64,000 nucleotides of DNA from Gammaproteobacteria bacterium (GCA_050291745.1 JBNKKI010000120.1:4397-68396); one strand, 5' to 3'. Shown: positions 1 to 14,721, counted from the stretch's first letter. Numbers and translations: made by a program. The notes: a model not told the origin generated them from the sequence alone.

Positions 1-1375
1 CTGGCAGCGAGCGCACGCCGAACTCAAGGGGCGTGCTGGCTTCGGCGAGCAGGCGTTCGAAATCCTCCTGGGTATGTCCGGCGGCAATGTAATCGTTGAC
101 GTCGATCTTGGCGGTGGCGAGAAGCGCCTCGGCCGCTTGGATTTCCTCGGCGGGGCGTCCTGCCAATAGCTTGGCCAGCTCCTTCGGCCCCACGCTCGCC
201 ATCAGGCCGAAGCGTTCGGTCAGCTCCTGCCGGGCCGAGAGCTGTGTCTCCGACAAGGGCAGCGTCACCAGGCGGGTGTCGATCTTGTGTTCGGCCAGGG
301 TGCGGGCGGTTTGCAGCGCCCCCTTGAGACCGGCCTGGGAGAGTTCGTTGTCCTGACAGATATAGACTGTTTCGACGCCGCGCAGCTTGGGGATTAGGCG
401 CTCCCAATCGGCGGCCCGGATGCGGACGGTGACCGGAGATACGGTGGGCAGGCCCAGTTGCATCAGCGCCAGACAATCGGTCACCCCCTCGGTGATGATC
501 ACCTTGCCGGGCCTGGCCAGCAGGCAGTCCTCGTTGAACAGCAGCGCGTTGTTGATGAAATCGGCGACGTAAGGTCGCTGGTGCTCGTCGTGAACGGGCA
601 GCTTCTTGTATTTCCCTTGCTCCCAGTTAGCGTCCGGGGTCCACGGCGTTTTACGGCCGATCATGAACACCACCCGGCCACGGCTCCAGTAGGGAAAGAC
701 GATGCGGCGCTCGAAAAATGGCGTCAGGCCGTCCTGGCTGGTGGGGCGGAACGCGCCGGTGGCGGCGAGCTCCCGTTTGGAGAAACCGTCTTCACCCCCG
801 GTCAATTGGGCGACCGCGCCGGAGGCGTTGTCCGCGTAGCCGATCAGGAGATCGTCGATGGTCTCCTCGCTCAGGGCGTATTTGGATTTCAGCCAGTCGA
901 GGACCTCCGGCGACGCCCTGAGTCGGGCGTGGTAAAGCCTGGCCAGCGCCGTCAGCGCGTCCTTGACCCGCACTTCGAAGGCACGGTCGGCCTCTGTCTG
1001 GGCGAGACGCTCCTGACTCAGGCCATAGCGTGACAGCGGCGGCAAGCCCGCCTTCTTGGCGAGATAGTCCCTGGCCTGGCGGTGGCTGTCCGGCATCGGA
1101 CCGGATTGCCCGGCGGTGACCGAGCCTGTCTGAATGAACTCCACGAGCTGCAGCACATCGCCACCAACCCCGCAGCCGAAGCAGTACCATCCCTGTTTGT
1201 CGAGCATCACGTGCAGCGACAGACGCGACTGGCTCTGATGGTTGGGGCAGTCGCACATCAAGCGCTGGCCGGTCTCCTGGGTGATCCGTCCCGGCAGAAG
1301 TTCCCGGGCCACCTCACCGATGTCCATCTCGGTGACGAGCCGGTAATACTCCCTGACGTTATCCGTTCCGCCCAT
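1..1375 (-). CDS. DnaG-like DNA primase (CHC2 zinc finger plus TOPRIM). The ATG is at 1375; the CDS runs off the window start and is 5'-complete but 3'-partial.
   Basis: Manual minus-strand translation from the ATG at 1375..1373 gives MGGTDNVREYYRLVTEMDIGEVARELLPGRITQETGQRLMCDCPNHQSQSRLSLHVMLDKQGWYCFGCGVGGDVLQLVEF (a CHC2 zinc-finger motif) and, later, VIITEGVTDCLALMQLG (a TOPRIM-like motif). A GGAGG sits about 10 nt upstream. The ATG immediately follows the TGA of the upstream helicase gene (tgagtATG). The ORF track misses it because the frame stays open to position 1. Confidence 0.7.
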   Translation of the reverse strand, partial: MGGTDNVREYYRLVTEMDIGEVARELLPGRITQETGQRLMCDCPNHQSQSRLSLHVMLDKQGWYCFGCGVGGDVLQLVEFIQTGSVTAGQSGPMPDSHRQARDYLAKKAGLPPLSRYGLSQERLAQTEADRAFEVRVKDALTALARLYHARLRASPEVLDWLKSKYALSEETIDDLLIGYADNASGAVAQLTGGEDGFSKRELAATGAFRPTSQDGLTPFFERRIVFPYWSRGRVVFMIGRKTPWTPDANWEQGKYKKLPVHDEHQRPYVADFINNALLFNEDCLLARPGKVIITEGVTDCLALMQLGLPTVSPVTVRIRAADWERLIPKLRGVETVYICQDNELSQAGLKGALQTARTLAEHKIDTRLVTLPLSETQLSARQELTERFGLMASVGPKELAKLLAGRPAEEIQAAEALLATAKIDVNDYIAAGHTQEDFERLLAEASTPLEFGVRSLP

Positions 1376-1377
1376 AC

Positions 1378-3606
1378 TCATTCGGCCTCCGCGACACGGG
1401 CGAAGTCGTCTTCCGGGTGCTGGGCTGCGTCCAGAAACAGGGGCAGGAAGGTCCGGCGGTCATCCACCTGGCAACGCTTGGCGCAGTTCTGAATGCCCCA
1501 ATGGTCGCCCAGGACAATGGCGGTGCGCCGTGCGCGGGTCACCCCGGTGTAGAGCAGATTGCGGTGGTGCATGAAGGAATGCGCCTTGTGTACCACCACC
1601 ACGGCACAGGGGAACTCGGAACCCTGGGTTTTGTGGATGGTGAGCGCATAGGCGAGTTGCAGATCCTGGAGGTCGGGCGAACCCTTCTCCAGCTCCACCG
1701 GCATGCCGTCGAAATCGATGACCAGGGTGCCGTTCGCGAGGACGTCGACCACATAGCCGATGGCACCGTTCATCACGTTCAGGTCGTAGTTGTTCCTGGT
1801 CTGGATGACCTTGTCGTGCTTGAGAAACGGGGCGCGTCGGCCCATGGCGACCGGCGGCACCTCGGTGTTCCAGAGCTTGCGCTGGATGAGCCGTTGCAGT
1901 TCCTCGTTCAATTCCTTGGTGCCTAGCGGCCCCTTGTGGGTCGGCGTCAGCACCTGCACGTCCTTGATGATGTCGAAACCCAGGGCGTCGAGCCGCTCCT
2001 GAAACAGCTCCAGCAGAAACGAGCGTGCCGCCATCGGATCGGTGAACTGATCCACCAGATACCAATCCCGGCATCCGGTCACCGACGCCTCGCTGGTCTT
2101 GCGCACCTCGCCCTTGAGAACGGCGGTGCAGTTCTCCTTGAGAACGCCAGCCTGACGCACGACCTTGTCGAGGATGACCGTGGGAATGGCGCGTGTCTGG
2201 ATCAGATCACGCAAGATGTTTCCTGGCCCCACCGGCGGAAGCTGGTTGTGGTCTCCGACCAACAACACCGTGGTCCGCGACAGGTCAACCGCCTCGAACA
2301 AGTGCCAGGCCAGCGGCACGTCGACCATCGAGAACTCGTCGACCACCAGGACATCGGCATCGATGGGGTTCTCCTTGCTGCGCGAGAAACCCTTGCCGTC
2401 ATAGCCGAGCAGGCGGTGGATGGTGGTGCCGCTGCGACCGCTGACTTCCTCCAGGCGCTTGGCCGCCTTGCCGGTCGGCGCGGCGAGCACGACCTCCAGA
2501 TCGCTCTCCTCGCAGATGGTGTTGATGACCGAAATGGTGTAGCTCTTGCCCGAACCGGCTCCACCCGAGATCAGGCTGATGCTGTGCTTGAGCGCCGAGC
2601 GCACCGCGTCGAGCTGCTTCTCGTTCAGCGTCGCCGCGCAGCGCCGAATCAGGGCGTCGAGTTTTTTGATGGAATGGAAATGCGGATTGGGTGTTTCGGC
2701 CTGGCCGAACAACGCAGCCAGCTCCCGCTCCATGCGGACGATCTCCGGCAGGGCGACCACGAAACGTCCGCCGTGGGAATTGCAGGCAAGCGCCTGTTCT
2801 TCGATGAGCGCGTCGAGGGCGCTCTCGATACGAACCCGGCTGTCCAGGGCATCCATGACCAGCAGCAGATTGGCCTGGTCGACCAGATCCTCGTATTCGA
2901 TCCAGCAGTGGCCATTGTCCAGGGCTTCACGGACGCAGAAATTTAACCCGGCCCGGATACGAGGGGTGTGGTCCTTGGGGGTGCCAAGCTTGCGGGCAAT
3001 CTTGTCGACCTTCTTGAAGCCGAATCCCCGGATCTCCCGAATGAGGATATACGGGTCTTCCTTCAGGACATCGAGGCAGTTGCCGCCGAGTCTTTCGACC
3101 AGGGTGGTGACCTGATGATGAGTCAGGCCGAATGCCGACAGCCAGGCCATGACGGTGTTGACGCTGCGGTTCTTCAACCATTCGTCACGCAGCCGCCGGG
3201 CCGCGTCCAGAGGCAGTCGAGCCTTGAGCGCGATGCGTTCGGGGTCATTCAGAAGGGTTTCTTCAAAGGCGTCGCCGAAGCTTTCGACGATCAATCTGGC
3301 CTTGGCCGGACCAATACCCTTGATCTCCGGATGGTTGGCCAGATAGTGGATCAGCCCCTCCGGGTCGAGTTCGAGGTCGTGCTCCATCCCGTCGACCTTG
3401 AACTGACGGCCGTATTTGGGATGGGTGGACCACGACCCGAGCAGGACCACAGGCTGATTTTCCCGGGCGAACAAATTGCCCGCGAACTGGACTTCCTCAC
3501 CGGTCGGGGTGAGCAGTCGGCCTGCGGAAAACTTGGGTCCGGCATAGTAAACGCGCTCTATTCTTCCCCGGAGTCGCGCCGGGTTACTCTCATTTCTTTT
3601 TGGCAT
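1378..3606 (-). CDS. RecD2/TraA-family (RecD-like) SF1 DNA helicase
   Basis: The ORF 1378..3789 contains a Walker A motif (GGAGSGKSYT), AAPTGKAAKRL, and a RecD2-like N-terminus (RGRIERVYYAGPKFSAGRLLTPTGEEVQF) followed by HhH-like helices. The likely true start is M62 of the ORF (MPKRNESNPARL) at 3606, preceded by GGAGG. The region upstream of M62 translates to low-complexity R/P/L-rich sequence. Confidence 0.75.
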   Translation of the reverse strand: MPKRNESNPARLRGRIERVYYAGPKFSAGRLLTPTGEEVQFAGNLFARENQPVVLLGSWSTHPKYGRQFKVDGMEHDLELDPEGLIHYLANHPEIKGIGPAKARLIVESFGDAFEETLLNDPERIALKARLPLDAARRLRDEWLKNRSVNTVMAWLSAFGLTHHQVTTLVERLGGNCLDVLKEDPYILIREIRGFGFKKVDKIARKLGTPKDHTPRIRAGLNFCVREALDNGHCWIEYEDLVDQANLLLVMDALDSRVRIESALDALIEEQALACNSHGGRFVVALPEIVRMERELAALFGQAETPNPHFHSIKKLDALIRRCAATLNEKQLDAVRSALKHSISLISGGAGSGKSYTISVINTICEESDLEVVLAAPTGKAAKRLEEVSGRSGTTIHRLLGYDGKGFSRSKENPIDADVLVVDEFSMVDVPLAWHLFEAVDLSRTTVLLVGDHNQLPPVGPGNILRDLIQTRAIPTVILDKVVRQAGVLKENCTAVLKGEVRKTSEASVTGCRDWYLVDQFTDPMAARSFLLELFQERLDALGFDIIKDVQVLTPTHKGPLGTKELNEELQRLIQRKLWNTEVPPVAMGRRAPFLKHDKVIQTRNNYDLNVMNGAIGYVVDVLANGTLVIDFDGMPVELEKGSPDLQDLQLAYALTIHKTQGSEFPCAVVVVHKAHSFMHHRNLLYTGVTRARRTAIVLGDHWGIQNCAKRCQVDDRRTFLPLFLDAAQHPEDDFARVAEAE

Positions 3607-4040
3607 CTCGCGATCCTCCGGTGAAAACGTGTCAGGTACTCCTCGACAAAACGGCAGGCGGCCTGCCGGTCCGAGCAGAAGTAGACGGGGACACCGAAGT
3701 CGACGACGATGGAGGCGACCGTTCCGATCAGCGCATGCGGGTGGGCATCGCTGCGGTAGCGGCCATCGACCAGATCGCGAAAGTTGCACTCGACAACCAC
3801 GCAGGCGGATTCGTAGGCGGAGAGCTTTTCCAGCTCGCGGTGAAACCGCTTTCGCCCCCGGATGACGGTGGAGACGAAATCCGTCAGGGATTTGCGCTCC
3901 ACCGCCACCCGTTCCTCAAGGCCGACCAGTGAGTAATCACCGGCGGGCAGCGCCTTGCGAACCGCCGAAACCTTGTCACTATCGAAGCTGTAGGGCTCCT
4001 GTTCGCGGGTGTCGACGACAACGGTGATCCGGTCCATCAT
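3558..4040 (-). CDS. ERCC4 (XPF/Mus81-type) nuclease-domain protein
   Basis: 160 aa containing VVVDTREQ...AGDY...ERKSLTDF, which fits the ERCC4 GDx(n)ERKx3D nuclease signature. The start overlaps the stop of the upstream gene (ATGA). The 3' end overlaps the predicted helicase start by about 49 nt. Confidence 0.5.
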   Translation of the reverse strand: MMDRITVVVDTREQEPYSFDSDKVSAVRKALPAGDYSLVGLEERVAVERKSLTDFVSTVIRGRKRFHRELEKLSAYESACVVVECNFRDLVDGRYRSDAHPHALIGTVASIVVDFGVPVYFCSDRQAACRFVEEYLTRFHRRIARCQKEMRVTRRDSGEE

Positions 4041-4513
4041 CAGAACGGGATCATGTCGTCCATCGCCGCGCCGGGAGCCCCGGCATCGTCGGCCATGACA
4101 ATGCGACGGTTGAAGTAGATGTTCTCGTTTTCACCGCGAGTGCGCTTGGTCACCTCCAGCCTGATGTTGAGAAGCTGCTCGAGGTGGCCCGGCAAGTCGG
4201 AGAGCTTCTGAAGCTGCAGCCCGCAGGTGTAGAGGTCCTGCTTGAGCCATTTGATGTTCTCGTTGCTGGCCATGACGTTGTTGCGCCAGAGAAGACGGCC
4301 CTTGTGGGTCGGCGCGAGAATGCGCAGGGTCCACTTGAGCATGGGATTGCCGGAGGTCTGGGCGCGGGTCAGTTCGACCCGGTCGACGTTGACCTGGTAC
4401 TTGCCGTCGGGGACGGCCTCGAACTCGCGTTCCTCGACTTCGGCGGTTTCAAAGGCGTCGTCGAACTGCGCCAGGTCGAGGTTGCTGTTGGATTGGTTTT
4501 CGTAGTGTTCCAT
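4040..4513 (-). CDS. Phage SSB-like / DUF669-like protein with an SSB-type acidic C-terminal tail
   Basis: 157 aa ending ...DDAGAPGAAMDDMIPF. The terminal acidic DDMIPF resembles the protein-interaction tail of bacterial SSB (DDDIPF). The gene lies immediately downstream of a Sak4-like gene, as in phage single-strand-annealing and recombination modules. Confidence 0.5.
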   Translation of the reverse strand: MEHYENQSNSNLDLAQFDDAFETAEVEEREFEAVPDGKYQVNVDRVELTRAQTSGNPMLKWTLRILAPTHKGRLLWRNNVMASNENIKWLKQDLYTCGLQLQKLSDLPGHLEQLLNIRLEVTKRTRGENENIYFNRRIVMADDAGAPGAAMDDMIPF

Positions 4514-4525
4514 GGTTGGATCTCC

Positions 4526-5296
4526 TTATTGTTGGGGTTTCGCCGTCGCACTCGCGGTCGGCTCCGGCTTCGGCCGGGCGGCACTCGCCGCAGCTCCGGC
4601 TGCCGTGTTGTTGAACGCTTTCATGAAGCTCGAAAAATCGAGGGGGATGACTTCGGGGAGTCGGCCGGTGCGGTCACCGGCGTCGTAGTTGGGACTGGGC
4701 TTGGTGCGCATCACGCGCTGCCAGACCGGCTTGCCGTCCTCGCCGGTTTTCATGTCCAGGTCGCAGAACAGGATCAGGTCCACCAGACCGGTGACCAGCT
4801 TCCGCGCCTTTTCCGGCAGCGTCGGCACGATGCGGGTGTGTTTGCCGGTCCGGGTCTCAATATCCCGCTCCTGGGAGTGGGAGATCAGGATCAGCCCATA
4901 GGGCAGGAAGGCGAGCTTGTTGATGACGCGCTGGAACTCGTTGTTGATCAGCGCGTAACCCTTGCCGTAGCCCAGGTCGGATTCGTGCTCGATCTTGAAT
5001 TTCTTGCAGACGTAGTCCGAGCACATCTTGTAGGCGTTATCCACCGTGTCGACGACGATGGTCTTGAACTCGTGCTTGCCCTCGGCGATTTCCGCGCAGG
5101 CCTGCAGAAGGTCGTCCCAGCAGGTGATCGGGGTCTGGAACACCTCCAGGGCGTTCAGACCCGGCTCGGTCGCCAGGAACAGTGCGTCATCGGCCTTGGA
5201 GCACCAGGTGCTCTTGCCGATCTTGCTCGGGCCGTACACCAGGGCGGTGAGGTCCGAGAGTGTGTGTTTGGGTTTGCTTTTGGTCTTGGGAAGCAT
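4526..5296 (-). CDS. Sak4-like (AAA_24 / RecA-fold) phage recombination ATPase
   Basis: 256 aa with a Walker A motif LVYGPSKIGKST near the N-terminus and a Walker B-like motif TIVVDTVDN. The size and the order (ATPase followed by an SSB-like gene) match Sak4 modules. Confidence 0.65.
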   Translation of the reverse strand: MLPKTKSKPKHTLSDLTALVYGPSKIGKSTWCSKADDALFLATEPGLNALEVFQTPITCWDDLLQACAEIAEGKHEFKTIVVDTVDNAYKMCSDYVCKKFKIEHESDLGYGKGYALINNEFQRVINKLAFLPYGLILISHSQERDIETRTGKHTRIVPTLPEKARKLVTGLVDLILFCDLDMKTGEDGKPVWQRVMRTKPSPNYDAGDRTGRLPEVIPLDFSSFMKAFNNTAAGAAASAARPKPEPTASATAKPQQ

Positions 5297-5322
5297 GGCT
5301 TCGTCTCCTTATGGTTGGGATT

Positions 5323-6339
5323 TCAAAACACCGGAGCGGCGTCTTCACCGGCTCCGTCCCGCAGCTCTTCGTGCGGGGCGATCCGTTGGAAATGGTTTTC
5401 GATGACGTTGGGGTTGCCGCCCGAGCGGCAGAGCTGGAAGTAGGCGCAGGGCCGTCCGTACTGGAAGCAGTAGCTGGTGTTGCGGTAGAAGGTGTCGCGC
5501 CGACGGGCGTCGAGCATGGCCTTGGAGAGTTCCCACAGCTCCGCCCGCAGTTCCTCGAACTGGTCGCGGGAGATGTAGAGCACCTCGCGGTGGAACATGC
5601 CCGGCTCGAGGTACTTCTCCTGAAGCCGCTGCTGGAAGGTGTCGTCGTCCTCCGGCAGCTTGCGCTTGGCGCTGCTCTTGCCGGTTTTCGACTTGGCGAT
5701 CAGCTCCGCCCGGCGGGCCTCGAATTCGGCTTCGGTTTCACCCTTGCCCTGGCGCAGCTTGGCCTTGACCAGGACGTTGTAGATGATGCCGCTGACCGTG
5801 ATGCCGAGGGTCTGCTCCAGGTACCAGGCGTAGAGGATGATCTGGAAGTCGGTCCACAGCCGTTCCAGGTAACTGGCGTCGATCTGTGAAGCGGTTTTGT
5901 GTTCCAGCAGGAAATACTGGCCATCTTGACGGACGATGCCGTCCACCTTTCCGGCGAGAATGAAACTGCGCGAGGTCGCGCCGGTCGCCGGGTTGACGAT
6001 GGGACCTTCGAAGGTCTTCTCGAGCGCGACGACCTCGAACGCTTCAGCCGGGTAGTGTTCCGCATAGGCGCTCATCATGGCTCGGGCGAGATGCCAGTCG
6101 GCCTGTTGATGATCGTCCTGCGCCCGGTTCGGATAGGTCCGGTCGATGTGGTCGAGGACCTTGGCCAGATCTCGCTCGCCGTGCCAGCACTCCAGGCAGT
6201 CGTGAATGACCGAGCCGAAGGCCAGATTGGGGTCGCGCTCGAGCGGCACCAGCTCGTCGATGTAGCGCCACTTGCAGGCCATGCGGCAGTTGCGGAACAG
6301 CCGCCACATGGAATAGGTGGTGGTCATCAGCTCGCTCAT
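5323..6339 (-). CDS. PD-(D/E)XK family exonuclease, Cas4/RecB-like, with a C-terminal Cys cluster
   Basis: 338 aa with a D...E.K-type core (GKVDGI..., YFLLEHKTAS) and a C-terminal cysteine cluster (CFQYGRPCAYFQLC), typical of Cas4/AddB-like iron-sulfur nucleases. Confidence 0.6.
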   Translation of the reverse strand: MSELMTTTYSMWRLFRNCRMACKWRYIDELVPLERDPNLAFGSVIHDCLECWHGERDLAKVLDHIDRTYPNRAQDDHQQADWHLARAMMSAYAEHYPAEAFEVVALEKTFEGPIVNPATGATSRSFILAGKVDGIVRQDGQYFLLEHKTASQIDASYLERLWTDFQIILYAWYLEQTLGITVSGIIYNVLVKAKLRQGKGETEAEFEARRAELIAKSKTGKSSAKRKLPEDDDTFQQRLQEKYLEPGMFHREVLYISRDQFEELRAELWELSKAMLDARRRDTFYRNTSYCFQYGRPCAYFQLCRSGGNPNVIENHFQRIAPHEELRDGAGEDAAPVF

Positions 6340-6674
6340 ACCGCCACCCCCGCTGTAGCGGCGGTGGGCGCTGCGCGATGCTTGGAGGCGCAGGCGCAGC
6401 CAGACGGCTGGGTTCGTTCGATCAGGACCGAGCGTTCGCCGTACTCCTTGGTGGCGAAACCGGTGAAGATGCGGGCGAGGTCGCTGCCGACATCGGTGGA
6501 GGCGTCGATCACGCAGGTGCGTCGGGCCTTGTCCAAATTGAACCGGCTCTCCATCCGCACACGGGAACGGCCATGCAGGCTTTCGACGGCCAGCATCGCC
6601 AGCATGAAAGTGTCTTCCAGTTCCTGGGCCGGGACCGACTCGTCAAAACGGTACTTGTAGGTGTCGTGAGTCAT
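6336..6674 (-). CDS. Hypothetical small protein (112 aa)
   Basis: The internal start MTHDTYKYRFDE at 6674 has AGGAG about 8 nt upstream. The longer 191-aa ORF (up to 6911) would overlap the sigma-factor gene and is rejected. The stop overlaps the exonuclease start (ATGA-type coupling). Confidence 0.4.
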   Translation of the reverse strand: MTHDTYKYRFDESVPAQELEDTFMLAMLAVESLHGRSRVRMESRFNLDKARRTCVIDASTDVGSDLARIFTGFATKEYGERSVLIERTQPSGCACASKHRAAPTAATAGVAV

Positions 6675-8058: not shown

Positions 8059-10161
8059 TCATTCGTTGACTATCGGGCGGACCTCCCAAACGATCTCCTC
8101 TTCGGTCCGGTAGACCGGTTCGTTGCCGCACTTGATGGACTCCTTCAAGTGGGCAGCCAGCGGCTTATCGTACTTCTCCAGATACTTGATGGCCCGGTTC
8201 ACGGCGTTCCGGAAGGCGTCGCGGATGTTCTTCCGTTTGTCGTTGGATTTCCGGAGTTTGCCACCCAGACCAACCGCCTCGTTGATTGCGGCTGTGATCT
8301 GGGTCATTTCGTCCTCAAGCCGCTGGATTTCGGCATCGTTGTTTTCTGCCCGGGCTTCTTCAATCTCTCGGAGAAGCTCGTGAGCCGTCTCCCGGTATTG
8401 CTCGACGGCCTTGCGGTCGGCAACGAAGCCGGTATCACCCAACGGAACCCCCTGGGTGACCTGAAAACCTTCGTCGGTTTCATTGGAGTTCAGGACCGCG
8501 TTGCAGCTATCGATGGCAAACCCGCAGACGATCTCGTAGACCGAGGTTTCTTTGTTGGGCCTCGCCAGGAGGAAGTTGATGTACTCGGCTCCTTTGTCGA
8601 CACCCGTCACGAGCACCTCGGCGTTGCCGTTAAAGCGTGCGGCCCAGACACCCCCGCGCTTCCTGAAATAGTTGTCCGGCTGCTTCTGCTCGACCGGAAT
8701 GGCGGGGACTGAGATCACCGATCCCGATTCATAGACCGTCCGAAGCAAGCAGTCTCCTGGCAAGGTGCGCTGGCGGATGGCCGTGATGTTGCGGGCGACC
8801 ATGGTGTCCATCGCTTCGCAGACCTCCTTGGCGTGGCGCTTGTAAAGGTCATAGACCTTCTGGGCCACGCTTCCGGGGTTCCCATTCAGGTAGCGGAAGA
8901 CCCGACTCACTTCGCTGAATCGAGCGATAAACTGGGTGATGTCATCCTGATCACGGACCTGGTTGGCACGCTCCAGATACGCGGCCGCCATGATTTTGTC
9001 TTCGTCCTTGCTTCGGCTTTGGGTGAAGATGTCGGCCTTGTAGGCATCGACAGGATCATATTGATCGGCCTTCGCCGCAATAACGGCAAAGCGCCGGTCG
9101 ATGCACTGCGAGCAGGTGCCGCAGTGGGTATGGTGATTGGTCATCTCCCAGGTGTGCGTGCAGGTGGTCGATGCCGCGATCATCTCCTGGCATCCGGCTT
9201 TGGTGATGACCCCGACGACGTCAGCCTTGGTTTTCCAGATGTAGGGATTTTCAATGGTGAATGGTTCGCCAGCCACCAGACTGATGATTTCCTGGAAGCC
9301 TCGGATTACCCTGGGATGGGTGGTGCGCGTTGCTCGGCCGCCGACGACCTGGGCGCAGACCGGCAGATTCAGACTGATGACGCCGTTCTCGTAGAATCGG
9401 ACGCTCTTCAGGTTGATCATTTTTGCGATGGTCGCCCCGATGGACACATAGAGGAAGGAGCGGCTCCGCTGGGTGTACTCGTAGTTCAGCCCCTTGTTCT
9501 TGTTGACGCGAACTCCGATGTGAAGGGGAGCGTTTTCACCGGCCTTGTCGGCAATCATCTTTTCCAGGCGGCGGTGGCGTTTATTGAGCTTCGGGGTTGA
9601 CTTGTGTGTCACCAGGACGACCCGGTGCTTTTCGTTCAACACCTCGTCGATAGCTCCTGCCAGCGAATCCAGCCCGCCTGAAAACATCACCACCTGTTCC
9701 GGATAACCGAGAAGACGCCCGTCATCGTTGAAGTCCAGATAGCCCTGGAATGCCTGAGCCTCTTTCAGCTTGGTGAATTCAAAGTGGTAGCTGTCATCAG
9801 ACAGGAACCCAAGCGTCGAGCACAGGGCCTGCTGAATCTCCTCACCATTCCAGAAGTCCGGGTTCCGGACCGGAATGATGAAATGCAGATTTCTCCGCCA
9901 ACCATGACCAAAGGAATCAACGTCATCGGCTCCACGGGGAATGGCCTGGTCGGCGCTGTACACGTAGGTGGCAATTTCGAGCAGATCCTGGAAGGAATCC
10001 GGCACGTCCTTGCTCATCTTTTTGTGGATGTCTTCGATGCGTAGGGTGATCTTGTCCGGCCCATCCTTGCCCCACAAACGCAGGCGCAAATCCCGATCCG
10101 GGTTCTCCTCGATTCCGCTGGTCGGTGCGTTTCCGCAGATGATGTAACGCTTATCTTGCAT
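8059..10161 (-). CDS. 700-aa three-domain protein: unknown N-terminal domain, QueC-like PP-loop ATPase core, and unknown C-terminal coiled-coil-rich domain
   Basis: It carries a PP-loop signature VVMFSGGLDSLAGAIDEVL (SGGxDS), and downstream a QueC-type zinc motif CTHTWEMTNHHTHCGTCSQCIDRRFA (C-x(n)-CGxCxxCxxR). Roughly 190 aa at the N-terminus and 280 aa at the C-terminus have no recognisable motif. The start overlaps the upstream gene by 11 nt (translational coupling). Confidence 0.7.
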   Translation of the reverse strand: MQDKRYIICGNAPTSGIEENPDRDLRLRLWGKDGPDKITLRIEDIHKKMSKDVPDSFQDLLEIATYVYSADQAIPRGADDVDSFGHGWRRNLHFIIPVRNPDFWNGEEIQQALCSTLGFLSDDSYHFEFTKLKEAQAFQGYLDFNDDGRLLGYPEQVVMFSGGLDSLAGAIDEVLNEKHRVVLVTHKSTPKLNKRHRRLEKMIADKAGENAPLHIGVRVNKNKGLNYEYTQRSRSFLYVSIGATIAKMINLKSVRFYENGVISLNLPVCAQVVGGRATRTTHPRVIRGFQEIISLVAGEPFTIENPYIWKTKADVVGVITKAGCQEMIAASTTCTHTWEMTNHHTHCGTCSQCIDRRFAVIAAKADQYDPVDAYKADIFTQSRSKDEDKIMAAAYLERANQVRDQDDITQFIARFSEVSRVFRYLNGNPGSVAQKVYDLYKRHAKEVCEAMDTMVARNITAIRQRTLPGDCLLRTVYESGSVISVPAIPVEQKQPDNYFRKRGGVWAARFNGNAEVLVTGVDKGAEYINFLLARPNKETSVYEIVCGFAIDSCNAVLNSNETDEGFQVTQGVPLGDTGFVADRKAVEQYRETAHELLREIEEARAENNDAEIQRLEDEMTQITAAINEAVGLGGKLRKSNDKRKNIRDAFRNAVNRAIKYLEKYDKPLAAHLKESIKCGNEPVYRTEEEIVWEVRPIVNE

Positions 10162-10939
10162 CGGCTCGCGCTCCTTCTTTCAATTCGTCCTTCATTTTCT
10201 TCAGCGCATAGGAGGCGAAGCCGTTGGACGACTCCCGGGAGATGTCACCGCCTTCTTCGTATTTGTGCTTGGAAAACCAATCCGCCGAAAACTGTTCGAC
10301 GATCAGGGATGCTTCTTTGCAGTGCGTGGTCAGGGCTTTCTCGAATTGTCCCATTTCATTCATGGTGGCAAAGCGCTGGCCTTCGCCCAGATGGGTCGCC
10401 AGCGTTTTTGACAGGAAATAATTCATGCTCTCGTTGGTCAGCTTGGCGAAGAACGTGCGGGACAACTCGCCGAACTCCCGTTTTTTCCCGAGCGACGCCA
10501 ATGCTGCCTGAACGTCACTGGCGTCTGGCGTAAACAAGGAAGGCAGCTTGGGAGAGATGTGTTCGACCAATGCTCCAACCAAGGCCCGCTGCGACATCTC
10601 ACCCAAGTCAGAGCGACTACCGTTGGACTCGAGCTTCCGATCCATTGCCTCTGCAACAGCGGCGGCTACGTCGGGCAATGAGGTGTCCTGTGGCAGATTG
10701 ATGCCTACCGACTGCAGGTGATCGTTGAAGTTGTCCTTCTTGGCGGCAATGGCAAGCTGGGTCATCAGCCATACCGCCTCGGTAAACCCCTCATCGTTGA
10801 GCACAAATGAGAAGGCCTTGTCAGCCGCCCGTATTGTGGCGTTTGCGATCTGGGACACGTCGGCACCGGCCGTGATCAGGCCGACCACCTCTTTCCATGC
10901 CCTCGACCTTGGAAGGCTCCCAAGTCTGACGTGCCCCAT
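10151..10939 (-). CDS. Hypothetical 262-aa all-helical protein, operon partner of the QueC-like protein
   Basis: Its codon usage is consistent with coding sequence. It lies 33 nt downstream of the wHTH gene and overlaps the QueC-like gene start. No catalytic motif was recognised. Confidence 0.55.
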   Translation of the reverse strand: MGHVRLGSLPRSRAWKEVVGLITAGADVSQIANATIRAADKAFSFVLNDEGFTEAVWLMTQLAIAAKKDNFNDHLQSVGINLPQDTSLPDVAAAVAEAMDRKLESNGSRSDLGEMSQRALVGALVEHISPKLPSLFTPDASDVQAALASLGKKREFGELSRTFFAKLTNESMNYFLSKTLATHLGEGQRFATMNEMGQFEKALTTHCKEASLIVEQFSADWFSKHKYEEGGDISRESSNGFASYALKKMKDELKEGARADAR

Positions 10940-10972
10940 GTCGATCTCCTTATTGTTCGCGACCCTGCATCG

Positions 10973-11206
10973 TTATTCGGGCCTCCTGATGACGACGATG
11001 CTTCGGGCCTTACGAGCTTCTTTCTTCAAATAGCCTTTACGGACCAGTTGAGCGATCTGCTCGTGGGCGCTCGCGTGACTGATACCGAGGACTTCCGACA
11101 ATTCTTTCACCGTTGGCGGCAACCCCTTTTCATCGATGATTTGGCAAATGACCCTCAGCGTCCTGGCCTGCGGGTCGGTTATTTCCGATAGCTTTTTCTT
11201 TCCCAT
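10973..11206 (-). CDS. Stand-alone LexA-like winged-helix DNA-binding protein (77 aa, no peptidase domain)
   Basis: The sequence MGKKKLSEITDPQARTLRVICQIIDEKGLPPTVKELSEVLGISHASAHEQIAQLVRKGYLKK resembles the LexA N-terminal DNA-binding domain (LexA has ...[32 protein letters not shown]). GGAG lies about 8 nt upstream of the ATG. Confidence 0.6.
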   Translation of the reverse strand: MGKKKLSEITDPQARTLRVICQIIDEKGLPPTVKELSEVLGISHASAHEQIAQLVRKGYLKKEARKARSIVVIRRPE

Positions 11207-11262
11207 GGCGATTGCTCCGTGTCATGGCCACTGAGCGGATTAGGCCCATCTTATGGTTAAAA

Positions 11263-11291
11263 AATATACGACCTGATGAATATCAGGTCAA
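11263..11291 (-). promoter_or_regulatory. Near-consensus sigma-70 promoter (TTGACC, 17-bp spacer, TATATT) with an embedded perfect palindrome GACCTGATgaatATCAGGTC (11270..11289), a putative operator
   Basis: The minus strand reads TTGACCtgatattcatcaggtcgTATATT, about 55 nt upstream of the wHTH start codon. The 8-4-8 perfect inverted repeat overlaps the -35 element and the spacer, which is the expected position for an autoregulatory operator. Confidence 0.55.
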
Positions 11292-11779
11292 TCAAAAAAA
11301 CAGGACTTTTCATCTGATTCCGTCATCTTGCACGTCCCTCCGGTAGGTAACGAACGCAAGTCCGGTTAAAGCCGGGCACAACCAGATAACCGACCAGAGG
11401 CGGAGCTGAGGCGGTTGTGGGTGCCATCGAACGCGCATCCCGACCCCCACCGTTTTCTGGCATCCACACCATCCAGTCCCCCGGTCCCACCGGAGGTGTT
11501 CGATGTTGGATGTACAGGAAATGAATGATGGGCCGGGGACGGATGACCTTGGCGAAAACGGCAAACCCGGCCGCCTGTCGGGTGAGGCGAGGCTCCAGTC
11601 AGCCGCCTCCATTCTGGCCACTGCGATCCTGCGCCGAAAGGCCAAAAAAGCATGTGGAGGCAGTGAGTTAGAGATTTTCGAAGATTCTTCCCCTGTGCTC
11701 AGAGAAGGACTTGATTCATTGCCGGAACAGAGCATTCATTCATGACAACTCGTCCGGAAACCAAAATAAGGAGTTGAAA

Positions 11780-12304
11780 ATGAATGAGTTACAAAATGCC
11801 GCCACGGGCGGCAAGAATCAGGACCGAACCCGAAACTCGGTCCTTCGGCAGATGGCCCTGCTGCAATCCATGTCCCTGGAGCAGCTCCGGGAAAAATGGC
11901 TCGACCTCTACGGCGAAGAGCCGCCCCAGTACAAGAAACAATTCCTCATCAAGCGGCTGGCCTATCGCATCCAGGAGCTTTTCTACGGTGGGCTGTCCGA
12001 GCAGACCAAGGTCCATCTCCAGCAGGCCGCCAAGGAGGACCCGGTCGCAACTGTCAATCGACGCATCCCAGAGGAGCGGAAATCAAACGAGGCGATCCTG
12101 CCCGGGACCAGACTGGTGCGGATATGGAACGACCGGCGCTATGAGGTGATCGTTCTTGCCGATGGCTACGAGTTCGAAGGCCGCACCTTCCGGTCGCTCA
12201 GCGCGGTGGCCAGGGAGATCACCGGGACGCGCTGGAACGGGAAAGTCTTTTTCGGACTGAAGAAGGTTTACGGCAGAAAAGCCGATGGAGGTTCGGATGC
12301 TTGA
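11780..12304 (+). CDS. DUF2924-like serine-recombinase accessory protein
   Basis: Translation starts at MNELQNAATGG (11780), after an AAGGAG Shine-Dalgarno sequence. The C-terminus (RLVRIWNDRRYEVIVLADGYEFEGRTFRSLSAVAREITGTRWNGKVFFGL) resembles the DUF2924 family that typically precedes large serine recombinases. The gene overlaps the recombinase start by 20 nt. Confidence 0.55.
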   Translation: MNELQNAATGGKNQDRTRNSVLRQMALLQSMSLEQLREKWLDLYGEEPPQYKKQFLIKRLAYRIQELFYGGLSEQTKVHLQQAAKEDPVATVNRRIPEERKSNEAILPGTRLVRIWNDRRYEVIVLADGYEFEGRTFRSLSAVAREITGTRWNGKVFFGLKKVYGRKADGGSDA

Positions 12305-13883
12305 TAACAGCAATGTCGCGCCGGGCAAAAACAAGACCCTGCGCTGTGCCATCTACACCCGCAAGAGCCACGAAGAAGGTCTCGAACAGGAGTTCAACTC
12401 GTTGGATGCGCAACGGGAATCGGCGGAACACTATATCGAAGCCCAGAGGATGCGTGGCTGGACGGCTCTGCCGGATCGCTACGACGATGGGGGTTTCTCG
12501 GGCGGGAACATGGAGCGTCCGGGGCTGCGCCGCCTGCTGGCGGACATCGACGCCGGGAAGATCGATGTGATCGTCGTCTACAAGGTCGACCGGCTGTCCC
12601 GCTCGCTGCTGGACTTCATGAAGATGATCGACCTCTTCAACGAGAAGGGTGTCAGCTTCGTCTCGGTCACCCAGCACTTCAGCACCACCGATCCCACCGG
12701 CCGGATGTTTCTCGGCATCCTGATCACCTTCGCCCAGTACGAGCGGGAGGTCATCGCCGAACGCATCCGGGACAAGGTGGCGGCTGCCAAGCGCCGGGGG
12801 AAATACTGCGGCGGCGTACCCATCCTCGGATACGACGTCAACCGGGACAACAAGAAGCTGCTGGTCAACCCAGATGAAGCCAGGACGGTGCAGTACATTT
12901 TCCGCCGGTTCATCCAGATCGGCTCGGCCAAGAAGCTGGGCCAGGAATTGAACGAACAGGGTTACCGCACCAAGGCCTGGACCACCAAGAAAGGCAAGGT
13001 GCGCGAGGGCTCCGAATGGAACACCGCCCACATCTATCGACTGCTAAACAACCGGATCTATATCGGCGAGATCGCCCACAAGGACCGCAGCTACCCCGGT
13101 GAGCACGAAGGGATTATCGACCGGGCGACCTGGGACAAGGTTCAGGCCATCCTGGAGGACAACAAACCGGTCAAGGTTTCCATGGCCAGAACCAAAATGG
13201 TCGCCCCGCTGAAAGGCGTCATCCGATGCGGCCACTGCGGATGCGCGATGGGACCGACCTACGCCCGCAAGAACGGCCGCCACTACACCTATTACATCTG
13301 CCAGAAAGACAGCAAGCGGACCGTGAGCCGGTGCCCGCTCAAACGGATTCCCGCCGGGGACATCGAGCAGGCGGTAATCGAGCAGTTGAGCGCGGTGTTT
13401 CGCACACCGACGCTGGTGGCCAAGACTTACTTCGCGGCCCGGGACATCGAGCAGGCAGAGCGGGAGCGGTTGTTCAAGCAGAAAGCCCAGCTCGAGATGG
13501 AGCTGTCGCAGGCACGGGAGCAGGCACTTGAACTGATGAAACCTGGCAACGATCAGCCGGGCAAGACCGAGATGCTGACTACGGTCAATCGCCAGGCGGT
13601 CGAGCTCACGAAACAACTGACCCATGTGAGCGAGCGATGCAGAGCCTACCAGGGGAACAGCATCACGGAGCAGGATGTGTCGGAGGCCTTCCAGAATGTC
13701 GAGGGCTTCTGGGAAGATCTTTTCCCGGTGGAGCGAAACCGGCTCATCCGCCTCCTGGTGGATAAGGTCGAGATCCGCGAGACCGGAATTGACATGGAGC
13801 TGCGCACCAACGGGCTGACAACGCTCATCGCCGAGCTGGCTGGTCTGGCATGCGAAGTCACCGAACGGAGGGCAAGCCGATGA
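12285..13883 (+). CDS. Large serine recombinase (integrase): resolvase catalytic domain, recombinase domain and zinc ribbon
   Basis: The N-terminal resolvase domain reads LRCAIYTRKSHEEGLEQEFNSLDAQRESAEHYIEAQ...IDVIVVYKVDRLSRSLLDFMKMIDLFNEKGVSFVSVTQ (Ser nucleophile in YTRKS). A recombinase domain and a zinc ribbon (RCGHCGCAMGPTYARKNGRHYTYYICQ...RCPLKRIPA) follow, then a C-terminal coiled-coil. The length is 532 aa. Confidence 0.85.
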   Translation: MEVRMLDNSNVAPGKNKTLRCAIYTRKSHEEGLEQEFNSLDAQRESAEHYIEAQRMRGWTALPDRYDDGGFSGGNMERPGLRRLLADIDAGKIDVIVVYKVDRLSRSLLDFMKMIDLFNEKGVSFVSVTQHFSTTDPTGRMFLGILITFAQYEREVIAERIRDKVAAAKRRGKYCGGVPILGYDVNRDNKKLLVNPDEARTVQYIFRRFIQIGSAKKLGQELNEQGYRTKAWTTKKGKVREGSEWNTAHIYRLLNNRIYIGEIAHKDRSYPGEHEGIIDRATWDKVQAILEDNKPVKVSMARTKMVAPLKGVIRCGHCGCAMGPTYARKNGRHYTYYICQKDSKRTVSRCPLKRIPAGDIEQAVIEQLSAVFRTPTLVAKTYFAARDIEQAERERLFKQKAQLEMELSQAREQALELMKPGNDQPGKTEMLTTVNRQAVELTKQLTHVSERCRAYQGNSITEQDVSEAFQNVEGFWEDLFPVERNRLIRLLVDKVEIRETGIDMELRTNGLTTLIAELAGLACEVTERRASR

Positions 13884-14302
13884 AAATGAAGCCGACCATT
13901 ACCGTTGCCGACAACGGCAACCTGCAGATCCACATCCCGATGCTGATCCGGCGCATGCGCGGCCGCAAGACGGTCATCGCTCCCCAGGCCCTGGATGGAG
14001 AAATCACCGGAGCGCAGGAACCGGTGCAGTCTGCCATCCTCCAGGCGCTGGGAAGAGCCTTTTCCTGGGCCGACATCCTCGAATCCGGCCAGATCAAGTC
14101 CATCAGCGAGCTTGCCCGTACCCTTGACGTCGATGGCTCGTATGTGGCCCGCATTCTCAAGCTGACGACCCTGGCCCCCGACATCATCGAAGCCCTGATC
14201 AACGGCGAGGAACCCAACGGGCTCTCGCTGGCCAAGCTGACCCAGACCTTCCCCGAGGACTGGGCCGAGCAGCGCAGCCAGTTCGGCTTCGCCACCGACT
14301 GA
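13880..14302 (+). CDS. HTH-containing hypothetical protein, the third gene of the recombinase module
   Basis: The start MKMKPTITV overlaps the recombinase stop (ATGA). A putative HTH is SISELARTLDVDGSYVARILKLTTL. A terminator follows. Confidence 0.5.
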   Translation: MKMKPTITVADNGNLQIHIPMLIRRMRGRKTVIAPQALDGEITGAQEPVQSAILQALGRAFSWADILESGQIKSISELARTLDVDGSYVARILKLTTLAPDIIEALINGEEPNGLSLAKLTQTFPEDWAEQRSQFGFATD

Positions 14303-14327
14303 CGACCGGACCGGAGACCACCAAAGA

Positions 14328-14354
14328 GAGCCGACCATCAGCGTCGGCTTTTTT
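14328..14354 (+). terminator. Rho-independent terminator after the recombinase module
   Basis: A gccgac-catcagc-gtcggc hairpin is followed by tttttt. Confidence 0.55.
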
Positions 14355-14665
14355 ACTTTAGGGGGCAGGAAGCCGGAGTTGACCGCGCTTCTTTTCGTGG
14401 CCGAGGCGGGCGATTTCGAAAAAAACGTCCGGTTGCGGCATCGAACGATGACCTAAGACAACCGCCCAAAATGGCAATCAGCCGCAAACCCATATCAATC
14501 AAGGATGTAGCTTTCCGGACGCGCTTCGGACTTCGTCCGGAGAAAACAGAGAATCAGGGGCCAAACAGAGAAAGAAAGGCGGGAGGATGGGGAGAATCGA
14601 TGGTGCGGAGAGGTGCTTTGGAAAGATATGAAACGGGCGCAAACCCTTTAGAAACAAGGGGAAAA

Positions 14666-14721
14666 AGAAAACCCGCCTACCCAGAGAATCACTCTGGAGA
14701 GACGGGTTGTCTTTTTTTAAA
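14666..14721 (-). terminator. Putative ssrA terminator (bidirectional hairpin) immediately downstream of the tmRNA CCA end
   Basis: The minus strand reads ...CCAtttaaaaaaagacaacccgtctctccagagtgattctctgggtaggcgggttttctttttcc. It contains the stem aacccgtct/aggcgggtt with a nested ccagag/ctctgg hairpin, then a U-rich tract. On the plus strand the same hairpin is followed by T7. Confidence 0.45.

What the first reader, a model, noticed from the sequence alone, without database searches (positions are those of the whole stretch)
1..14721. A GC-rich mobile island lying adjacent to ssrA in an AT-rich genome and ending in a large serine recombinase module
Base composition changes abruptly near 14.7-14.8 kb. 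To the left the DNA is roughly 60-65% GC by eye, with GC3-saturated codons and many long antisense ORF artefacts. To the right it is about 35-42% GC. The GC-rich block ends with a DUF2924 protein, a large serine recombinase and an HTH protein. It contains phage-type replication genes (primase, RecD-like helicase) and recombination genes, and carries none of the MITEs that pepper the host intergenic regions. It abuts the 3' end of tmRNA, a classic hotspot for island integration. All of this points to a recently acquired integrative element from a high-GC donor, either a prophage or a phage-satellite/PICI-like element. Only its right 14.7 kb is visible, because the primase gene runs off the window start.
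Basis: partly seen in the sequence, partly recalled or inferred. Interest (0 to 1): 0.6.

Follow-up and report, generated by a model that had tools for sequence, protein, structure and literature searches.

The report
Promiscuous prophage inserted at tmRNA gene end
The GC-rich block is the right-hand end of a large tailed prophage inserted exactly at the last 8 bases of the tmRNA gene, apparently by a serine integrase, and near-identical copies sit at the same spot in dozens of unrelated bacteria, an unusually broad spread for a prophage.

Summary
Window 1..14721 is 60.1% GC and the rest is 39.0%. The step lies at the 3' end of an intact tmRNA gene (14722..15097, minus strand).

The block is not a satellite. 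It is 92-97% identical in DNA to the right arm of a temperate prophage of at least 58 kb with a contractile tail. Long relatives carry terminase, portal, capsid, sheath, tube, tape measure and baseplate genes.

The phage ends at TGGTGGAG, the complement of the tmRNA 3' end CUCCACCA. The same 29-nt phage end abuts 85 different tmRNA 3' sequences, and one tRNA-Ala gene, among 116 metagenome junctions. It also does so in Desulfobulbus oligotrophicus and in an Enterobacterales-type host.

A DUF2924 / large serine recombinase / 140-aa operon lies 839 bp from the junction. A 67%-identical recombinase occupies the same site in a member of the Pontiellaceae. A 55%-identical one sits elsewhere.

Serine integrases are said not to target tRNA-type genes, apart from one Dehalococcoides proposal, and no cross-phylum prophage has been reported.

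The left end was not reached. Integrase activity is inferred, not shown.

The parts
1..1381 (-). N-terminal 460 codons of the phage DnaG-type primase; the gene runs off the window start (1103 aa in relatives)
   Evidence: Pfam Zn_ribbon_DnaG, DNAG_N and Toprim. It is 97% identical to the first part of the 1103-aa protein of L113 / Oleidesulfovibrio alaskensis G20.
1378..3606 (-). RecD2-type SF1 helicase (742 aa)
   Evidence: Pfam AAA_19, AAA_30, HHH_RecD2, SH3_13 and UvrD_C_2. The start codon was set from the gene calls on L001.
3558..4040 (-). ERCC4-type nuclease (160 aa)
   Evidence: Pfam ERCC4, 3.1e-21. The exact sequence is an NCBI 'MULTISPECIES [Pseudomonadati]' protein found on at least 1000 contigs.
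4040..4513 (-). DUF669 protein (157 aa); a single-strand DNA-binding role is my own knowledge, not tested here
   Evidence: Pfam DUF669, 5.7e-26.
4526..5296 (-). AAA_24 ATPase (256 aa; a Sak4-like recombination ATPase role is my own knowledge, not tested here)
   Evidence: Pfam AAA_24, 6.3e-57. Its 90%-identity cluster has 530 members.
5323..6339 (-). PD-(D/E)XK, Cas4-like nuclease (338 aa)
   Evidence: Pfam PDDEXK_1, 1.5e-19. PADLOC gives weak Cas4 hits.
6779..7363 (-). sigma-70-like transcription factor (194 aa)
   Evidence: Weak Pfam hits to Sigma70_r2 and r4_2. PHROG phrog_1740, RNA polymerase sigma factor, 1.1e-24.
7559..7885 (-). conserved backbone ORF of 108 aa, function unknown
   Evidence: GC3 is 0.81. 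The same 108-aa ORF is present in L113 and L431. No family hit.
7875..11379 (.). cargo hotspot that differs between otherwise near-identical phages. Here it holds a 700-aa QatC-like protein (8059..10161, minus), a 262-aa unknown protein (10151..10939, minus) and a 77-aa winged-helix repressor (10973..11206, minus)
   Evidence: Many relatives match 2186..7874 and 11380..14302 but not the stretch between. PADLOC QatC, 2.2e-53; PHROG phrog_362, transcriptional repressor. Other relatives carry a 207-aa LexA/S24-type repressor here.
11503..11745 (+). 80-aa ORF that opens the rightward operon, divergent from the repressor gene
   Evidence: It is called as a gene in L429 and in L483-L490. No family hit.
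11780..12304 (+). DUF2924 protein (174 aa); its stop overlaps the recombinase start by 8 nt
   Evidence: Pfam DUF2924, 1.2e-52. PHROG phrog_11806, 1.4e-62. It always precedes the recombinase, including in the 67% and 55% homologues.
12297..13883 (+). large serine recombinase (528 aa), the proposed integrase
   Evidence: Pfam Resolvase 1.4e-39, Recombinase 7.4e-19, Zn_ribbon_recom 9.8e-15. PHROG phrog_95, integrase, 1.1e-128. The motif YTRKS is near the N-terminus. It matches the TP901-1, SprA, A118 and phiC31 integrases in the PDB. Its 90%-identity cluster has 1098 members.
13880..14302 (+). 140-aa protein with a weak ParB-type helix-turn-helix; last gene of the operon
   Evidence: PHROG phrog_14161, 8.3e-55. 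Weak ParB hits, E 0.03. No Pfam hit.
14303..14721 (.). conserved non-coding right arm of the phage (the P arm of attP). It holds the operon terminator (about 14329..14355, plus strand), a deeply conserved block at about 14501..14579, and a phage-supplied terminator for ssrA (14662..14716, minus strand)
   Evidence: The arm is collinear in relatives right up to the junction. The ssrA-side hairpin folds at -32.1 kcal/mol, z = -6.5, and is followed by a U run. L484 has compensatory changes in it, and L634 has an unrelated hairpin in the same place.
14722..14729 (.). TGGTGGAG: the core shared by the phage end and the last 8 nt of ssrA (CUCCACCA); the crossover lies within it
   Evidence: Phage similarity ends here and host-specific sequence begins, in the window and in about 130 other junctions.
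14722..15097 (-). intact host tmRNA gene (tag ANDDNYALAA), the integration target
   Evidence: ARAGORN and Rfam RF00023, 198.8 bits, full length. From 14730 onward the 3' part is the same as in uninfected relatives L003 and L005-L009.

Best explanation
Window 1..14729 is the right arm of an integrated temperate tailed phage. In relatives the phage is at least 58 kb and carries myovirus-type (contractile-tail) virion genes.

The visible part holds:
- the replication and recombination module;
- a cargo slot with a QatC-like gene;
- the immunity region;
- at the very end, a three-gene operon encoding DUF2924, a large serine recombinase (LSR) and a 140-aa ParB-HTH-like protein.

Proposed mechanism. 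The serine recombinase recombined the phage site attP with an attB made of the 3' terminus of ssrA, that is CUCCACCA plus the acceptor stem and T-arm. In attP the arm ending ...TCTAAA is joined through TGGTGGAG to the arm starting GGAACGACGACC.... The strands cross within the 8 shared bases, so the tmRNA gene stays whole. The phage arm brings a new intrinsic terminator to replace the displaced one.

This target is almost invariant among bacteria, and serine integrases need no host factors (established for phiC31 and Bxb1). The integration step can therefore work in almost any bacterium, which fits the spread observed.

Shown: the identity of the element, the exact junction, the intact ssrA, the recurrence of the same junction in many hosts, and the link between this recombinase clade and the site.

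Inferred: that the serine recombinase rather than the phage's second recombinase catalyses the reaction, the position of the crossover dinucleotide, the other phage end, and that this copy is still active.
For: - Composition step and gene content.
- 92-97% DNA identity, collinear over 2186..14729, to IMG/VR proviruses and to genomic copies.
- Walking through relatives gives large terminase, portal, a 1524-aa MuF fusion, major head, neck, sheath, tube, a 1211-aa tape measure and baseplate genes.
- The junction is always ...AAA|TGGTGGAG| followed by host-specific tmRNA sequence: the window, L429, L431, L483, L484, L485, L488, L491, L492.
- Of 116 metagenome junctions, 94 have a T-arm-type flank, in 85 distinct versions. 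54 of 60 loci tested have a complete tmRNA at the junction, with more than 35 different tag peptides. One junction is at tRNA-Ala.
- The LSR gene ends 839 bp from the junction. The phage's tyrosine recombinase lies about 21 kb away.
- The 67%-identical LSR in Pontiellaceae sits at the same site with a different arm sequence. The 55%-identical LSR sits beside a sulfatase gene with no tmRNA.
- The terminator is conserved in function.
- Host relatives have no such DNA at ssrA.
Against: - No integrated copy was read across its left end, so attL and the flanking repeat were not seen.
- The proposed P' arm comes from about 14 contigs that could be circular phage DNA, tandem lysogens or another element using the same site. 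It could not be linked to the known left arm.
- No dyad symmetry was found around the core in attP or attB.
- The left half of attB, the DNA downstream of ssrA, is not conserved between hosts.
- The phage also encodes a 304-aa XerC/D-like tyrosine recombinase, the family that normally targets tRNA-type genes.
- The window shows no virion gene, so completeness of this copy rests on relatives.
- The window probably comes from a metagenome-assembled contig.
Confidence: 0.8

Rival explanations
1. The phage is integrated at ssrA, but by its XerC/D-like tyrosine recombinase, as in classical tRNA/tmRNA islands. The serine recombinase operon would then do something else, such as inversion, resolution or moving a cassette.
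For: Relatives encode a 304-aa protein with Phage_integrase and Phage_int_SAM_1 domains. It is annotated 'integrase family protein' in Oleidesulfovibrio alaskensis G20. The literature says only tyrosine integrases are known to target tRNA and tmRNA genes (PMC4383910). An 8-9 bp identity block also suits a tyrosine recombinase overlap region.
Against: Its gene lies about 21 kb from the junction, between a cargo slot and the packaging genes. The serine recombinase operon is 839 bp from the junction in every copy. The protein is short and Xer-like, and Pfam reported no arm-binding domain. Serine recombinase divergence tracks the site: 67% identity at the same site, 55% at another. PHROGs places the serine recombinase in an integrase family.
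Confidence: 0.13
2. The join between GC-rich DNA and the AT-rich genome is an assembly or binning artefact. On this reading, a phage contig from a high-GC organism was fused to an unrelated host contig through the conserved tmRNA end.
For: The exact proteins of the window are on record on an NCBI/ENA contig of 134,098 bp that could not be fetched, which suggests a metagenome assembly. Contigs of related hosts break exactly at the tmRNA 3' end. The same phage occurs in many organisms of the same kinds of samples.
Against: Only 8 bases are shared between the phage end and this host's ssrA, far below assembler word sizes. The base after the core is A here and G in attP and in most hosts. The junction is at exactly the nucleotide used in complete genomes such as CP054140.1. 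The window's phage arm has its own substitutions, including compensatory ones in the terminator.
Confidence: 0.04
3. The block is a phage satellite or a decayed remnant that keeps only replication and integration genes.
For: Only replication, recombination, regulatory and integration genes are visible in the window. Nothing left of the primase gene can be read.
Against: The visible 14.7 kb is collinear, at 92-97% identity, with phages in which the primase gene is followed by cargo, packaging and tail genes. All ORFs have the lengths seen in relatives. No satellite-type small size or tyrosine integrase at the ssrA side is seen.
Confidence: 0.05

Closest known systems
Dehalococcoides ssrA-specific genomic islands with the serine recombinase DsiB (McMurdie et al. 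2011, PMC3146451)
   Same: An element sits directly downstream of ssrA with a recombinase of about 530-540 aa next to the gene. The operon includes further small proteins, one of them ParB-like. Arrays of islands form in tandem at the site. The role of the recombinase was inferred from genomes, as here.
   Different: Those islands are 10-30 kb with no virion genes. They pair DsiB with a second small serine recombinase (DsiA) rather than DUF2924. They leave a 20-bp direct repeat with the crossover in the T-loop, and they are confined to one genus. Here host-specific sequence starts 8 nt from the 3' end, the element is a tailed phage, and the hosts are very diverse.
Phage large serine integrases: phiC31, Bxb1, TP901-1, A118, SPbeta SprA
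   Same: Same three-domain architecture, and sequence similarity to the solved structures. The gene lies next to the att site. By analogy, the enzyme should be independent of host factors (my own knowledge).
   Different: The known examples integrate into protein-coding genes or intergenic sites of one host group, and none targets a tRNA-type gene end. Here the recombinase gene is flanked by DUF2924 and a 140-aa protein. No recombination directionality factor was identified.
Tyrosine-integrase prophages and islands at ssrA (Islander/TIGER-type elements; Williams 2002, 2003)
   Same: Insertion at the 3' part of ssrA with the gene restored by element sequence, and the tandem arrays seen in L511/L527, L558, L090 and L095.
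   Different: In those elements the integrase next to the tRNA-type gene is a tyrosine recombinase, and the duplicated fragment is usually tens of bases long. Here the adjacent gene is a serine recombinase and the shared core is 8-9 bp.
Wolbachia phage WO recombinase region
   Same: A DUF2924 gene lies directly upstream of a serine recombinase gene in a tailed temperate phage (PMC10299305).
   Different: A different phage and host, with other insertion sites. No link to ssrA was found in the papers read.

Membership tests
Large serine recombinase (phage serine integrase) | N-terminal resolvase catalytic domain with a serine nucleophile | tested here: met
   Pfam PF00239, 1.4e-39. The motif YTRKS is at residues 19-23. 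It matches the TP901-1 catalytic domain, 3.8e-23.
Large serine recombinase (phage serine integrase) | Recombinase domain followed by a zinc-ribbon domain | tested here: met
   PF07508, 7.4e-19, and PF13408, 9.8e-15. It matches A118 integrase residues 26-208.
Large serine recombinase (phage serine integrase) | Gene placed next to the element's attachment site | tested here: met
   The stop codon at 13883 is 839 bp from the core at 14722. The same layout holds in all relatives.
Large serine recombinase (phage serine integrase) | Recombination of short attP and attB sites at a 2-bp crossover without host factors | not testable with these tools
   Only the outer limit is known: the crossover lies within TGGTGGAG. 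No dyad symmetry was detected.
Tailed temperate phage (Caudoviricetes, contractile tail) | Large terminase, portal, major capsid, tail sheath, tube, tape measure and baseplate genes | tested here: inconclusive
   All are present in relatives that are 92-97% identical over the shared arm. None can be seen in the window, because the element runs off its start.
Tailed temperate phage (Caudoviricetes, contractile tail) | Lysogeny module (repressor plus integrase) | tested here: met
   A 77-aa repressor-type winged helix at 10973..11206 (phrog_362). Relatives have a LexA/S24-type repressor. The integrase is as described above.
tRNA/tmRNA-gene islands of the classical (Islander) kind | Inserted in the 3' part of a tRNA or tmRNA gene, with the gene restored | tested here: met
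   Full-length tmRNA; the last 8 nt are shared with the phage end.
tRNA/tmRNA-gene islands of the classical (Islander) kind | Tyrosine integrase gene on board, usually next to the target gene | tested here: not met
   The gene nearest the target is a serine recombinase. The only tyrosine recombinase in relatives is about 21 kb away.
tRNA/tmRNA-gene islands of the classical (Islander) kind | Displaced 3' gene fragment as a direct repeat at the far end | not testable with these tools
   The far end lies outside the window and was not reached in relatives.
Phage satellites (PICI-like elements) | Small element (about 10-20 kb) without virion genes that depends on a helper phage | tested here: not met
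   The backbone continues into a full virion module. The element is at least 58.5 kb in contig 3300006418_000005.
Dehalococcoides ssrA-GI / DsiB family | A DsiA small serine recombinase partner, a 20-bp ssrA repeat and a crossover in the T-loop | tested here: not met
   The partner here is DUF2924. The host-specific T-arm sequence begins 8 nt from the 3' end. The defining features are taken from PMC3146451.

The most novel reading that the evidence does not exclude
One lineage of temperate tailed phage lysogenises bacteria of different classes and phyla. Its genomes are 92-97% identical and its integrase proteins are up to 100% identical. The hosts seen by junction are an Enterobacterales-type organism, Desulfobulbus and the 39%-GC gammaproteobacterium of this window. 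Protein names add Chlorobiota, Planctomycetota, Betaproteobacteria and others.

The proposed reason is that it pairs a host-factor-independent serine integrase with an attachment site that every bacterium has, the 3' end of tmRNA, with tRNA-Ala as a look-alike. It also swaps tail-fibre and defence cargo cassettes.

If true, this would be the first serine integrase shown to use a tRNA-type gene outside Dehalococcoides. It would also be a natural integration system with a near-universal landing site.
Probability: 0.55. Interest if true: 0.85.

Novelty: new variant of a known kind. Interest (0 to 1): 0.6.

Why it matters
Prophages at ssrA and serine integrases are both familiar. The combination is not: a standard reference states that only tyrosine integrases are known to target tRNA and tmRNA genes (PMC4383910).

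A survey of 33,624 prophages found strictly narrow host ranges and no report of a prophage shared between phyla (PMC9426530). Here the same phage end is physically joined to 85 different tmRNA or tRNA 3' sequences.

If the serine recombinase does the job, three things follow:
- It offers a natural integration tool whose landing site exists in essentially all bacteria.
- It identifies a vehicle that carries defence systems (QatC-like, Wadjet, type I R-M, AbiL-like) between distant lineages.
- It explains why metagenome contigs so often break at ssrA.

For this genome, the practical consequence is that about 15 kb or more of sequence next to ssrA is foreign and recent. It should not be used for binning or for composition statistics.

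Tried and rejected
- Extending the window leftwards. Exact-protein look-ups found only 2-3 kb contigs or nothing. The 134-kb source contig listed is not retrievable.
- GenBank phages, PLSDB plasmids and 5,426 complete E. coli genomes contain no DNA match to the block.
- Walking to the left end through IMG/VR took all 8 scans. It reached the 78-aa HTH gene. Beyond that lies more than 10 kb of cargo that differs between loci, with no common terminal segment.
- Catching attL through the Na+/Ca2+ antiporter gene next to the candidate left end failed. The hits were host genes or truncated fragments, not phage ends.
- Linking the candidate P' arm to the HTH/GGACT left arm by tblastn found nothing within 9-10 kb.
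- A search for dyad symmetry round the core in attP, attB and attR returned only the terminator hairpin.
- Reading the flanks of L087 and L096 as tmRNA was rejected. They are P'-like arms or other DNA.
- I considered that the loci with only a short ssrA fragment show integration into decayed sites. Later insertion of other islands between the phage and ssrA explains them more simply (L527).
- Literature searches for this phage or for a cross-phylum prophage at tmRNA found nothing specific.

Full report
**1. The observation**

One-kilobase windows give GC of 0.54-0.65 for 1..15000 and 0.29-0.45 for the rest. Overall the values are 0.601 for 1..14721 and 0.390 for 15098..64000. The fine profile drops from 0.68 near 14250 to 0.30 near 15150.

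ARAGORN and Rfam both find one full-length tmRNA gene at 14722..15097 on the minus strand, with tag ANDDNYALAA and 198.8 bits. Its 3' end therefore faces the GC-rich block. purL follows at 15198..19166.

ORFs with the codon-position GC pattern of real genes (GC3 of 0.69-0.86) encode the following:
- a primase cut by the window start;
- a RecD2-type helicase;
- an ERCC4 nuclease;
- DUF669;
- an AAA_24 ATPase;
- a PD-(D/E)XK nuclease;
- a sigma-like factor;
- a 700-aa QueC-like protein;
- DUF2924;
- a three-domain large serine recombinase (LSR);
- a final 140-aa protein.

Short dispersed repeat families lie only in the host part, from 20270 onwards. The description is therefore correct. The last gene is only weakly HTH-like (ParB-type, E about 0.03).

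**2. The block is foreign to this host lineage**

PurL relatives with 74-85% amino-acid identity, all uncultured Gammaproteobacteria, keep the ssrA-purL arrangement. None has GC-rich DNA beyond ssrA. DNA similarity to the window stops exactly at the tmRNA 3' end. Two of their contigs end at that very base.

**3. What the block is**

The recombinase is 98-99% identical to proteins on 24 IMG/VR provirus contigs. The window aligns collinearly with these contigs at 88-97% DNA identity from about 2186 to the end. In one group of relatives the stretch 7875..11379 does not align, so it is a cargo slot.

I walked through relatives, moving leftwards in window orientation. This gave, in order:
- the rest of the 1103-aa primase;
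- a second cargo slot (AAA_21 plus RloB in L113);
- a 304-aa XerC/D-like tyrosine recombinase;
- large terminase, portal, and a 1524-aa MuF fusion with a variable C-terminus;
- a 797-aa DNA methyltransferase, major head and neck proteins;
- tail sheath, tube, a 1211-aa tape measure and baseplate, followed by a mosaic stretch of the tail-gene region;
- an amidoligase / GATase / GGACT-like set;
- a 78-aa excisionase-type HTH gene, followed by defence cargo such as type I R-M.

The element is at least 58.5 kb in one contig and its left end was not reached. It is thus a temperate phage with myovirus-type (contractile-tail) virion genes, not a satellite.

IMG taxon 637000095 proved to be Oleidesulfovibrio alaskensis G20. 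No deposited phage, plasmid or complete E. coli genome holds the sequence.

**4. The junction**

Similarity between the window and its relatives runs through the 419-bp non-coding stretch 14303..14721. It ends inside TGGTGGAG (14722..14729), the complement of the tmRNA 3' end CUCCACCA. After those 8 bases every locus carries its own sequence.

A complete tmRNA starts right there in the following loci:
- L429, with a 98%-identical recombinase and tag ANDNYEYAMAA;
- L431, 83% identical, tag ANQELALAA;
- L483, L484 and L491, which encode the same recombinase protein and have tags ANDENYALAA, ADDYNYALAA and ADSDVRYALAA.

L484 is the complete genome of Desulfobulbus oligotrophicus, phylum Thermodesulfobacteriota. 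L483 has the ssrA-smpB-ratA-yfjF order of Enterobacterales and is 82% identical to E. coli there. The phage parts of L483 and L484 are 96.6% identical over 5.46 kb.

The results were:
- 116 junctions have at least 40 nt of flank. Of these, 94 have a T-arm-type flank, in 85 distinct versions.
- The flank consensus is GcGGcGGGAnTcGAACCCgcGTCCG.
- 54 of 60 loci tested have a full tmRNA at the junction, with more than 35 different tags.
- One junction is at tRNA-Ala(cgc), which shares the same 3' end.
- In a minority of loci only 6-25 nt of ssrA follow the core, and then other DNA. In L527 the full tmRNA lies 3.2 kb further on. This fits other islands having inserted later between the phage and ssrA.

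**5. The other phage end**

About 14 contigs carry, right after the phage end and TGGTGGAG, the same or a diverged segment of about 250 bp. The segment begins GGAACGACGACCTACCGCAAAACAGTCTC. Beyond it each contig runs into different cargo, including a complete Wadjet system in L572.

I read this as the attP junction, from circular phage DNA or from tandem lysogens. I could not tie it to the left arm described above, so it remains a candidate.

**6. Which enzyme**

The operon DUF2924 / LSR / 140-aa protein ends 420 bp from the junction, and the LSR gene itself ends 839 bp from it. The tyrosine recombinase is about 21 kb away.

The LSR has the catalytic, Recombinase and zinc-ribbon domains and matches solved phage integrases. 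PHROGs places it in an integrase family.

A 67%-identical LSR in a Pontiellaceae genome has the same flanking genes. It ends about 0.95 kb from TGGTGGAG of that host's tmRNA, although the arm sequence in between has diverged. A 55%-identical homologue with the same two partner genes lies beside a sulfatase gene with no tmRNA. The site therefore follows the recombinase clade.

I put the LSR as integrase at about 0.8 and the tyrosine recombinase at about 0.13.

**7. Keeping ssrA functional**

The crossover lies in the last 8 nt, so the tmRNA gene is unchanged (full Rfam match). The phage arm supplies a strong hairpin plus a U run directly downstream. In the window it spans 14662..14716 and folds at -32.1 kcal/mol with z = -6.5. 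The Desulfobulbus copy shows compensatory changes in the stem. The 67% relative has an unrelated hairpin in the same place.

**8. Breadth of spread**

The 90%-identity clusters of the recombinase, replication, capsid and tail proteins each hold 357-1098 sequences. Their names come from a wide range of organisms:
- Thermodesulfobacteriota: Desulfobulbus, Syntrophobacter, Geobacter, Desulfarculus, O. alaskensis;
- Gammaproteobacteria: Methylomarinum, Ectothiorhodospira, Shewanella, Enterobacter cloacae, E. coli draft records;
- Betaproteobacteria: Laribacter;
- Alphaproteobacteria: Sulfitobacter;
- Chlorobiota: Prosthecochloris;
- Planctomycetota: Sedimentisphaerales;
- Candidatus Sumerlaeota.

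Names alone could reflect mis-binning. The junction reads cannot, because they are within single contigs.

**9. Comparison with the literature**

The Islander paper states that only tyrosine integrases are known to target tRNA and tmRNA genes (PMC4383910). The exception I found is the Dehalococcoides ssrA islands with the serine recombinase DsiB. Those differ in partner gene, repeat length, crossover position and element type (PMC3146451).

A survey of 33,624 prophages reports strictly narrow host ranges and no prophage shared between phyla (PMC9426530). I found no paper describing this phage.

**10. Verdict**

The island itself is an ordinary kind of thing, a prophage at ssrA. Its integration module and its distribution are not ordinary.

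The weak points are the unseen left end, the untested enzyme, and the probable metagenomic origin of the window. A chimera is unlikely, because only 8 bases are shared at a junction that is identical to those in complete genomes.

Noticed in passing
window 8059..10939: A 700-aa QatC-like protein (PADLOC QatC 2.2e-53, with about 300 extra C-terminal residues) and an overlapping 262-aa protein with no family hit. They sit in a cargo slot next to the repressor gene. No QatA, QatB or QatD is present, so this may be a two-gene variant of that defence system.
   Followed up: partly
window about 14501..14579: A non-coding block (AAGGATGT...CGGACGCG-TTCGGA-TTCGTCCG-AGAAAACAGAGAA) that is conserved even in the relative whose recombinase is only 67% identical. 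It contains a CGGACG/CGTCCG hairpin. It could be a small RNA or a protein-binding site near attP. Rfam finds nothing there.
   Followed up: partly
window 20270..20810, 22320..22526, 35212..35371, 40968..41174, 54171..54303, 58197..58329: Families of short dispersed repeats (52-207 nt, 60-96% identical), some with internal inverted repeats. They occur only in the host part of the window.
   Followed up: partly
L008 and L011 (relatives of the host): Contigs of two related genomes end exactly at the tmRNA 3' end. This suggests variable or repeated DNA at this site in those populations too.
   Followed up: no
L559 767..863: The same phage end abuts a tRNA-Ala(cgc) gene instead of tmRNA. The two genes share the 3' end CTCCACCA and a similar T-arm.
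   Followed up: partly
L524, about 160 nt after the core: The candidate left-end segment contains a T-arm-like sequence, GGACGTGGGTTCGATTCCCGC, in the orientation opposite to ssrA. L572 has a degenerate version.
   Followed up: no
L113 13483..15425; L437 17567..20511; L572 5890..13513: The other cargo slots of relatives carry defence systems: AAA_21 plus RloB; type I R-M behind a 78-aa excisionase-type HTH gene with a conserved promoter; and a complete Wadjet JetABCD set.
   Followed up: partly
L432 6010..8857: In a relative with a 79%-identical recombinase, 2.8 kb (collagen-like and ATP-grasp genes) is inserted between the 141-aa gene and the last 316 nt of the phage arm, which still abuts tmRNA.
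   Followed up: partly
L188 1011..5585; L256 10964..13357: Relatives encode a 1524-aa MuF-domain fusion protein whose C-terminal half varies between copies, and a 797-aa DNA methyltransferase. In my own knowledge, both are features associated with evading host restriction.
   Followed up: no
protein clusters: Capsid and tail proteins of Oleidesulfovibrio alaskensis G20 appear under two accession ranges (ABB377xx and ABB386-387xx), which suggests two related prophages in that genome. Draft E. coli and Enterobacter cloacae records carry the same proteins, yet none of 5,426 complete E. coli genomes does.
   Followed up: partly
(L631-L633): A Na+/Ca2+ antiporter gene lies 260 bp from the candidate left end in L572 and L573. 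Its closest database relatives are mostly truncated 'partial' proteins at contig ends from many taxa.
   Followed up: partly
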